64,000 nt of DNA from assembly GCF_003019035.1 (NCBI RefSeq), contig NZ_CP027447.1; one strand, 5' to 3'. Within the stretch, counting starts at the first letter, position 1, and every line of letters starts with the position of its first letter. A program made the position numbers. Source of the stretch: Escherichia coli. Lineage in GTDB: Bacteria; Pseudomonadota; Gammaproteobacteria; Enterobacterales; Enterobacteriaceae. This document shows positions 63,201 to 64,000 of the stretch, piece by piece.

Positions 63201-64000
63201 CGCCAGCTCGCGGGTTAATGCGGTTTCCGGCCAGCGTTCGATCTCAGCGGTAATCACACTTTGTTGAAAAGGCACCGCCGCCGGTTCAGCGTCCAGCCCG
63301 ACTGGCCAGACAGCAATGCCTAACGGTTCGCCTGCCTGACGCAGCATACGGCCTAACTGCCCGTTACCGAGGACGCAAACCTGTTTCATGCCGCACCTCG
63401 CGGGTCCGGGTTTTCCAGCACTTCGTCAGTCTGTGCTTTGCGCCAGTCATTCAGACGCTGGTGTAGCTCTTTATCATGAGTTGCAAGAATTTGTGCTGCC
63501 AGTAACGCCGCGTTTGCCGCGCCAGCTTTACCAATCGCCAGCGTACCCACCGGAATGCCGCGTGGCATTTGTACGATAGAGTAGAGGCTATCGACACCGC
63601 TCAGTGCGGCGCTCTGTACTGGCACGCCCAGCACTGGCACCAGCGTTTTGGCGGCAATCATGCCAGGCAGGTGCGCTGCGCCGCCTGCGCCCGCAATAAT
63701 TACCTGATAACCGTTCTCTTCGGCGCTTTCGGCGAAGCTGAACAGTTTATCGGGGGTGCGGTGAGCAGAAACCACTTCAACGTGGTGCGGGACATTCAGG
63801 ATTTCGAAGATTTCGGCGGCGAACTGCATGGTAGCCCAGTCGCTTTTGGACCCCATCACGATGGCGACACGCGCCGGATTATTGCGGGAAGACATGCGTC
63901 TTAAAACTCCTGTGGTGCACAACTCTCGGCTTTAGAGGGCACAGAGAATAGCACGGAAAGAGAGCAAGGAAAACGGTTGCGTGGCTGTGAAATCAGCAAA

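What the first reader, a model, noticed from the sequence alone, without database searches (positions are those of the whole stretch)
63967..63982. PurR-box-like sequence upstream of purE
The minus-strand sequence acgcaaccgttttcct closely matches the PurR operator consensus and sits about 70 bp upstream of the purE start, consistent with purine repression of purEK.
Basis: partly seen in the sequence, partly recalled or inferred. Interest (0 to 1): 0.15.

Follow-up and report, generated by a model that had tools for sequence, protein, structure and literature searches.

The report
Known PurR operator of E. coli purEK

Summary
The minus strand of window 63982..63967 reads ACGCAACCGTTTTCCT, with 71 nt between the box and the purE ATG (63895). 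The window end is the E. coli lpxH-purE intergenic region and is identical to K-12 MG1655 over all shared bases. The plus-strand sequence AGGAAAACGGTTGCGT is letter for letter the PurR motif that Cho et al. 2011 (ChIP-chip, Table 1) assign to purE-purK, and their coordinates map exactly onto this position. A PWM built from the 27 other ChIP-chip sites scores it 19.7 bits. That is the top hit in the window, with 0.018 expected by chance. A published genome-wide TSS (Kim et al. 2012) falls at window 63937, so the box spans -45..-30, over the -35 region of a weak-(-35), extended-(-10) promoter (TGcTATTCT). A search that did not use the box recovered purE from 54 Enterobacterales loci (32 genera). 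All 54 carry the box, and 53 have exactly 16 nt between it and the -10 hexamer, while the flanks are unconserved. Eleven of 13 Pasteurellaceae loci have a variant box, and 0 of 43 Streptococcus controls do. The mechanism is hypoxanthine/guanine-bound PurR occluding the promoter. This is already known and of low interest.

The parts
63967..63982 (-). PurR operator (PUR box), ACGCAACCGTTTTCCT on the purE strand; positions -45..-30 relative to the TSS
   Evidence: Sequence read. Identical to the Cho 2011 Table 1 purE-purK motif. LOO PWM score 19.7 bits. Present in 54 of 54 Enterobacterales purE upstream regions.
63968..63973 (-). Putative weak -35 hexamer TTTTCC (3 of 6 matches to TTGACA, 17-nt spacer), lying inside the promoter-proximal half of the operator
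   Evidence: Inferred from geometry relative to the -10 hexamer and the TSS. This non-consensus half-site is unchanged in 53 of 54 Enterobacterales loci. The simple promoter scan did not call it because the -35 is weak.
63945..63953 (-). Extended -10 element TGcTATTCT (TG at -16/-15, hexamer TATTCT at -13..-8)
   Evidence: Sequence read. Conserved at 1.49 bits per column across 32 genera. The hexamer starts exactly 16 nt after the box in 53 of 54 loci. It lies 7 nt upstream of the published TSS.
63937..63937 (-). purE transcription start site (+1)
   Evidence: Kim et al. 2012 supplement file 2 gives the TSS at 552,365 (NC_000913.2, minus strand, 32 reads, 5'UTR 42 nt). The promoter string it lists is identical to the window sequence.
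63896..63936 (-). purE 5' leader (42 nt including +1) with Shine-Dalgarno AGGAG at 63911..63907; no RNA element detected
   Evidence: Sequence read. Rfam returned no match at E<=1. The fold z-score is +0.56, no better than shuffles.
63386..63895 (-). purE coding sequence (N5-carboxyaminoimidazole ribonucleotide mutase, 169 aa)
   Evidence: ORF found. RefSeq annotation of identical or near-identical DNA.
62322..63389 (-). purK coding sequence (N5-CAIR synthase, 355 aa); overlaps the purE stop by 4 nt, so it is the same operon
   Evidence: ORF found. Annotation.

Best explanation
The sequence is the PurR operator of the E. coli purEK operon. PurR is a LacI/GalR-family dimer. When it holds its corepressor hypoxanthine or guanine, it binds this 16-bp imperfect palindrome. 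The site covers -45..-30 of the purE promoter, which includes the weak -35 hexamer. Bound PurR therefore competes with RNA polymerase for the promoter and lowers transcription of purE and purK when purines are plentiful. The promoter compensates for its poor -35 with an extended -10 (TGcTATTCT). Shown here: sequence identity to the published in vivo site, statistical strength, position relative to a published TSS, and deep conservation of the box and its spacing to the -10. Taken from the literature: in vivo occupancy that increases with adenine, and repression of IMP-pathway genes including purEK. Inferred: steric exclusion of RNA polymerase at the -35, and the dual role of the right half-site.
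For: 1) Locus identity. The query matches 5,425 of 5,426 complete E. coli genomes and is annotated purE/purK. It is identical to K-12 MG1655 over every shared base of the intergenic region.
2) Published site. Cho et al. 2011 Table 1 lists the purE-purK ChIP-chip region with motif AGGAAAACGGTTGCGT at 552,395-552,410, enriched at 2.08 with adenine and 0.86 without. This is the same sequence and, after the 777-nt version offset, the same position. The same paper lists purEK among the IMP-biosynthesis genes repressed by PurR-hypoxanthine.
3) PWM. The leave-one-out score is 19.7 bits, rank 13 of 28 among the in vivo sites, with 0.018 expected per window.
4) Promoter position. The TSS at window 63937 places the box at -45..-30. 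Cho et al. state that PurR sites generally lie between the -35 and -10 promoter elements and regulate transcription initiation.
5) Phylogenetic footprint from a box-independent search. All 54 Enterobacterales loci score at least 17.4 bits, 11 of 13 Pasteurellaceae at least 15 bits, 0 of 43 Streptococcus and 0 of 6 other taxa. The box carries 1.89 bits per column against 0.24 in the upstream flank, and 53 of 54 loci have a fixed 16-nt spacing to the -10.
6) E. coli alleles with unrelated upstream DNA still keep the box intact.
Against: No result contradicts it. The limits are as follows. No binding experiment can be run here. The primary footprinting and mRNA-mapping papers (He et al. 1990, Tiedeman et al. 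1989) are not held in the library. ChIP-chip resolves about 500 bp, and the exact 16-mer was assigned by MEME/FIMO. The PWM training sites come from the same motif-discovery run, so the circularity is reduced by leaving purEK out but not removed. The plain consensus search with up to 3 mismatches is not significant on its own. The purR gene is not in the window.
Confidence: 0.97

Rival explanations
1. The match is a chance resemblance to the PurR consensus with no regulatory role.
For: A search with the ideal palindrome allowing up to 3 mismatches expects 0.62 hits per window, and 47 of 100 shuffles gave at least one hit.
Against: The leave-one-out PWM expects 0.018 hits per window at this score. 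The site is the published in vivo PurR site. It is conserved in 54 of 54 Enterobacterales purE promoters while the flanks are not.
Confidence: 0.005
2. The conserved block is only a promoter element (-35 or UP-like), kept for RNA polymerase binding, and PurR binding is incidental.
For: The right half TTTTCCT overlaps the predicted -35. It stays in its non-consensus form across genera, and the spacing to the -10 is fixed. Those are the properties expected of a promoter element.
Against: The left half ACGCAA lies at -45..-40, upstream of any -35 hexamer, and is equally conserved. Pasteurellaceae carry near-perfect palindromes (AAGCAAACGTTTGCTT) at different distances from the -10, which fits a repressor site and not a -35. 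PurR occupancy is adenine-dependent in vivo.
Confidence: 0.015
3. purEK is controlled mainly by a cis-acting leader RNA (riboswitch or attenuator), or by another LacI-family protein using the same box, rather than by PurR.
For: Purine and ZTP riboswitches control pur genes in other phyla (general knowledge). LacI-family paralogues recognise similar CG-centred palindromes (general knowledge).
Against: No Rfam family matches at E<=1 in window 63700..64000. The 42-nt leader is short and folds no better than shuffles, z = +0.56. The ChIP used PurR itself. A second binder is not excluded, but it would add to PurR control rather than replace it.
Confidence: 0.01

Closest known systems
PurR operator of purEK in E. 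coli K-12 MG1655 (Cho et al. 2011 ChIP-chip site; per the literature also He et al. 1990 and Tiedeman et al. 1989)
   Same: The 16-mer is identical. The surrounding intergenic sequence, promoter, TSS and downstream genes are identical too.
   Different: Nothing within the site differs. The window comes from a different E. coli lineage: purE/purK coding DNA is about 97% identical to K-12, and the window is cut 18 nt upstream of the box.
Other PUR boxes of the E. coli PurR regulon (purF, purHD, purL, purMN, purC, purT and others)
   Same: All are 16-bp imperfect palindromes with a central CG and the ACGCAA / TTGCGT half-site pattern. Cho et al. describe PurR sites as generally lying between the -35 and -10 promoter elements. 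Its leave-one-out score is mid-range, rank 13 of 28.
   Different: purEK has C at position 7 and TTTTCCT instead of TTTGCGT in the promoter-proximal half. The purB and purR sites lie in the transcribed or coding region and act as roadblocks, which this site does not.
LacI/GalR-family operators in general (LacI O1, GalR, CytR and others)
   Same: All are dyad-symmetric sites with a central CpG step bound by a dimer with helix-turn-helix plus hinge helices (established knowledge, not tested here).
   Different: The half-site sequence is specific for PurR. PurR binds DNA with its ligand bound (corepressor logic), the opposite of inducer-released LacI (established knowledge).
Bacillus/Firmicutes PurR and its PurBox
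   Same: Same gene name and same physiological purpose, purine repression of pur genes.
   Different: It is an unrelated protein family that senses PRPP and (p)ppGpp, with a different DNA motif. Accordingly, 0 of 43 Streptococcus purE upstream regions carry a LacI-type PUR box.

Membership tests
E. coli-type PurR operator (PUR box) | 16-bp imperfect palindrome matching ACGCAAACGTTTGCGT with a central CpG | tested here: met
   13 of 16 matches with the central CG intact. The leave-one-out PWM scores 19.7 bits, p = 1.4e-7 per position, and it is the top hit in the window.
E. coli-type PurR operator (PUR box) | Located in the promoter or 5' region of a purine or nucleotide metabolism transcription unit | tested here: met
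   The box spans -45..-30 relative to the published purE TSS and overlaps the -35 region. purE-purK lie downstream.
E. coli-type PurR operator (PUR box) | Occupied by PurR in vivo in a purine-dependent way | not testable with these tools
   Literature only. Cho et al. 2011 report a purE-purK ChIP-chip region with log2 enrichment 2.08 with adenine and 0.86 without. What was tested here is that the window sequence is identical to that site and maps to the same coordinates.
E. coli-type PurR operator (PUR box) | Bound by purified PurR plus hypoxanthine or guanine in vitro (footprint or gel shift) | not testable with these tools
   He et al. 1990 (PMC213288) is cited for this by the review PMC10912719, but the paper is not held. 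RegulonDB-based evidence tables list footprinted PurR sites, but the table body was not readable.
E. coli-type PurR operator (PUR box) | Conserved upstream of the orthologous gene in species that have LacI-type PurR and absent where they do not | tested here: met
   Scores of at least 15 bits were reached by 54 of 54 Enterobacterales, 11 of 13 Pasteurellaceae, 0 of 43 Streptococcus and 0 of 6 other taxa. The loci were found with a purE-codon pattern that does not include the box.
E. coli-type PurR operator (PUR box) | The cognate purR gene is present in the same genome | not testable with these tools
   purR lies about 1.2 Mb away in K-12 (Cho Table 1 coordinates) and is outside the 64-kb window. 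The window is E. coli DNA.

The most novel reading that the evidence does not exclude
The operator's departure from the PurR consensus may be selected for. The promoter-proximal half-site TTTTCCT is unchanged in 53 of 54 Enterobacterales loci (32 genera) and sits exactly 16 nt from an extended -10. This suggests it is dual-coded as both the PurR half-site and the -35 element, which would explain why it never drifts towards the stronger TTTGCGT. A second conserved block at the TSS (GCCCT) could mark an additional, undescribed control of initiation, such as a stringent-type discriminator. Neither idea changes what the site is.
Probability: 0.35. Interest if true: 0.2.

Novelty: already known. 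Interest (0 to 1): 0.05.

Why it matters
The result matters only as correct annotation. It shows the first-stage reader can recognise a genuine transcription-factor operator from raw sequence. It also fixes the purEK promoter anatomy in this window: operator at -45..-30, extended -10, TSS at 63937. The cross-genus footprint is a small addition, showing that the operator-promoter module is unchanged across Enterobacterales while the leader length varies. No open question is advanced.

Tried and rejected
- **Ideal-palindrome search.** Allowing up to 3 mismatches, this site was the only hit, but 0.62 hits are expected by chance. I rejected it as a significance test and replaced it with a leave-one-out PWM.
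- **Generic sigma-70 and terminator scan of 63500..64000.** It found nothing. The scan needs at least 4 of 6 matches in each hexamer, and this promoter has a weak -35 compensated by an extended -10, so the null result is uninformative.
- **Primary papers.** He et al. 1990 and Tiedeman et al. 1989 could not be retrieved by PubMed id or PMC id. Their content is cited only as recollection or through secondary sources.
- **RegulonDB evidence paper (PMC3548332).** The table of PurR sites was not rendered in the text.
- **Second-best PWM hit.** 54609..54624, GGGAAAACATTTGCCT, 13.1 bits. I rejected it as a PurR site because it lies inside a 261-aa ORF (54130..54915) and lacks the central CG.
- **Leader RNA.** An Rfam scan found nothing and the leader fold gave z = +0.56, so the riboswitch/attenuator idea was rejected.
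- **IS1/fdrA deletion.** I checked whether the window shares this feature of its best-matching genome, SCU-172. It does not.

Full report
**Observation.** The minus strand of the window from 63982 down to 63967 reads ACGCAACCGTTTTCCT. The purE reading frame on the same strand starts with ATG at 63895..63893 ([20 protein letters not shown]...). It is followed by purK, which overlaps the purE stop by 4 nt. The window ends 18 nt upstream of the box.

**Identity of the locus.** The last 701 nt of the window match 5,425 of 5,426 complete E. coli genomes, where they are annotated purE and purK. In K-12 MG1655 the genes run lpxH, purE, purK on one strand with a 117-nt lpxH-purE spacer. The K-12 spacer is identical to the window at every shared base.

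**Is it more than chance?** A search with the ideal palindrome ACGCAAACGTTTGCGT, allowing three mismatches, finds only this site. However, 0.62 such hits are expected in a shuffled window, so that test alone proves nothing. I therefore built a position weight matrix from the 27 other PurR motifs in Table 1 of Cho et al. 2011 (PMC3159470), leaving purEK out. The site scores 19.70 bits and is the best hit in the 64 kb on either strand. The next independent hit scores 13.1 bits, lies inside a coding ORF and lacks the central CG. The exact per-position probability is 1.4e-7, which gives 0.018 expected hits per window and about 1.3 per E. coli genome. Among the 28 in vivo sites, scored leave-one-out, purEK ranks 13th, so it is a typical member.

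**Direct link to published data.** Cho et al. list a PurR ChIP-chip region for purE-purK at 552,127-552,626. Its log2 enrichment is 2.08 with adenine and 0.86 without. The motif AGGAAAACGGTTGCGT is placed at 552,395-552,410. That is letter for letter the plus strand of window 63967..63982. Adding the 777-nt offset between the two MG1655 sequence versions gives 553,172-553,187, which is exactly where the box lies in NC_000913.3 (locus L001 4173..4188). The same paper names purEK among the IMP-pathway genes repressed by the PurR-hypoxanthine complex. A 2024 review attributes PUR boxes and purR control of pur genes to Tiedeman et al. 1989, He et al. 1990 and Meng et al. 1990. I could not read those primary papers.

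**Promoter anatomy.** Kim et al. 2012 (PMC3415461, supplement file 2) report a purE TSS at 552,365 on the minus strand, with 32 reads and a 42-nt 5' UTR. The promoter string they give, CAGCCACGCAACCGTTTTCCTTGCTCTCTTTCCGTGCTATTCTCTGTGCCC, is identical to the window. In window coordinates:

| Element | Window coordinates | Position relative to the TSS |
|---|---|---|
| TSS (+1) | 63937 | +1 |
| TATTCT (-10 hexamer) | 63950..63945 | -13..-8 |
| TG (extended -10) | 63953..63952 | -16/-15 |
| PurR box | 63982..63967 | -45..-30 |
| TTTTCC (inferred -35, 17-nt spacer) | 63973..63968 | -36..-31 |

The inferred -35 matches TTGACA at only 3 of 6 positions and lies inside the promoter-proximal half of the operator. 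This explains why a generic promoter scan called nothing. It also fits Cho et al.'s statement that PurR sites generally lie in the -35/-10 region and act on initiation. From memory, Tiedeman et al. mapped the mRNA 5' end 41 nt upstream of the ATG, which agrees within 1 nt. That is recollection, not a tool result.

**Related sequences.** I wanted a test that did not depend on the box. I scanned one genome per species with a degenerate DNA pattern encoding the PurE peptide [10 protein letters not shown]. For 120 loci I took up to 300 nt upstream of the purE start and scored them with the same leave-one-out matrix:

| Group | Loci | Best-hit scores | Loci at ≥15 bits |
|---|---|---|---|
| Enterobacterales (32 genera) | 54 | 17.4-25.2 bits | 54 |
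| Pasteurellaceae | 13 | median 16.4 | 11 |
| Streptococcus | 43 | median 5.1, maximum 13.3 | 0 |
| Other taxa | 6 | maximum 5.2 | 0 |

All 54 Enterobacterales boxes are in the same orientation as in E. coli. The Pasteurellaceae boxes are more palindromic variants, for example AAGCAAACGTTTGCTT. Streptococcus uses an unrelated PurR and so acts as a negative control. In an ungapped alignment anchored on the box, with one sequence per genus, conservation by segment is:

| Segment | Information (bits per column) |
|---|---|
| Upstream flank | 0.24 |
| Box | 1.89 |
| Spacer | 0.52 |
| TGnTATtcT | 1.49 |
| Rest of the leader | 0.22 |

The -10 hexamer starts exactly 16 nt after the box in 53 of 54 loci. 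The box-to-ATG distance, in contrast, ranges from 69 to 141 nt where the start codon is confidently placed. Only box positions 1 (A/G) and 7 (C/T/A) vary, apart from one C-to-G change at position 15 in Hafnia. Within E. coli, some strains (U15A, O18) have unrelated DNA upstream, with a 330-nt hypothetical ORF between lpxH and purE. Homology to the window begins only 1-2 nt before the box, and the box itself is intact.

**Mechanism.** PurR is a LacI/GalR-family dimer that binds DNA when it holds hypoxanthine or guanine. That is established knowledge, restated. Bound at -45..-30, it should exclude RNA polymerase from the -35 region and reduce initiation of purEK when purines are abundant. The site's identity, position, statistical strength and conservation are shown here. 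In vivo occupancy and repression come from the literature. Steric exclusion at this particular promoter is inferred.

**Rivals.** Chance is excluded by the matrix score, the ChIP-chip data and the conservation. A "promoter element only" reading does not explain the equally conserved ACGCAA at -45..-40. It also does not explain the near-perfect palindromes at different distances from the -10 in Pasteurellaceae. A leader RNA mechanism finds no support: there is no Rfam hit at E<=1, and the leader folds no better than shuffles, z = +0.56.

**Comparison and novelty.** This is the known purEK PUR box itself, not merely a relative of it. The one mildly new point is that the non-consensus promoter-proximal half-site and its spacing to an extended -10 are unchanged across the order. 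That suggests dual use as a -35 element. I rate the finding as already known, with an interest of about 0.05.

Noticed in passing
window 63984..64000 (minus strand, upstream of the box); loci L123, L124, L009: The DNA immediately upstream of the purE operator is polymorphic in E. coli. Strains U15A and O18 (and, with a similar sequence, E. albertii) have unrelated sequence and a 330-nt hypothetical ORF (WP_001188440/WP_001188438) between lpxH and purE. Homology to the window and K-12 allele begins 1-2 nt before the box.
   Followed up: partly
window 63935..63944 (minus strand, around the TSS): A 'GCCCT' block at and just after the TSS (ctgtGCCCTc) is conserved across Enterobacterales at about 0.9 bits per column. 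It could be a discriminator or initial-transcribed-region signal. No explanation was tested.
   Followed up: no
loci L071, L091, L092 (Yersinia), L031/L085/L090 (Serratia), L035/L116 (Dickeya), L054/L055 (Pectobacterium), L045 (Brenneria): purE leaders: Genera with long purE leaders (80-121 nt) share 'ctctacgccctc' after the -10, and most (not Dickeya) carry a hairpin-like ccag...ctgg element that is absent from the 42-nt E. coli leader. Its function is unknown.
   Followed up: no
window 62204..62277 (ybcF-purK convergent intergenic region): This stretch does not align to K-12 or to strain SCU-172, which carry longer inserts of about 110-190 nt here. It is a variable intergenic segment, possibly REP-type repeats.
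   Followed up: no
window 54609..54624 (minus strand): The second-best PurR PWM hit in the window is GGGAAAACATTTGCCT at 13.1 bits. It lies inside a 261-aa ORF (54130..54915, at the allE/ylbA position) and lacks the central CG, so I judged it a chance match.
   Followed up: yes
window 53970..57686 versus locus L122 (E. coli SCU-172): SCU-172 is 100% identical to the window over purE, but an IS1 replaces the allE-allC-allD and 5' fdrA segment there. The window keeps this segment intact and is only about 98% identical to SCU-172 in the flanking allantoin genes. The window therefore comes from a different, mosaic lineage.
   Followed up: partly
Pasteurellaceae loci L046, L119, L003, L010 and others: In Pasteurellaceae the PUR box upstream of purE sits at variable distances (about 7-18 nt) from a conserved TGCTATTCT -10. 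The operator therefore overlaps different parts of the promoter than in Enterobacterales.
   Followed up: no
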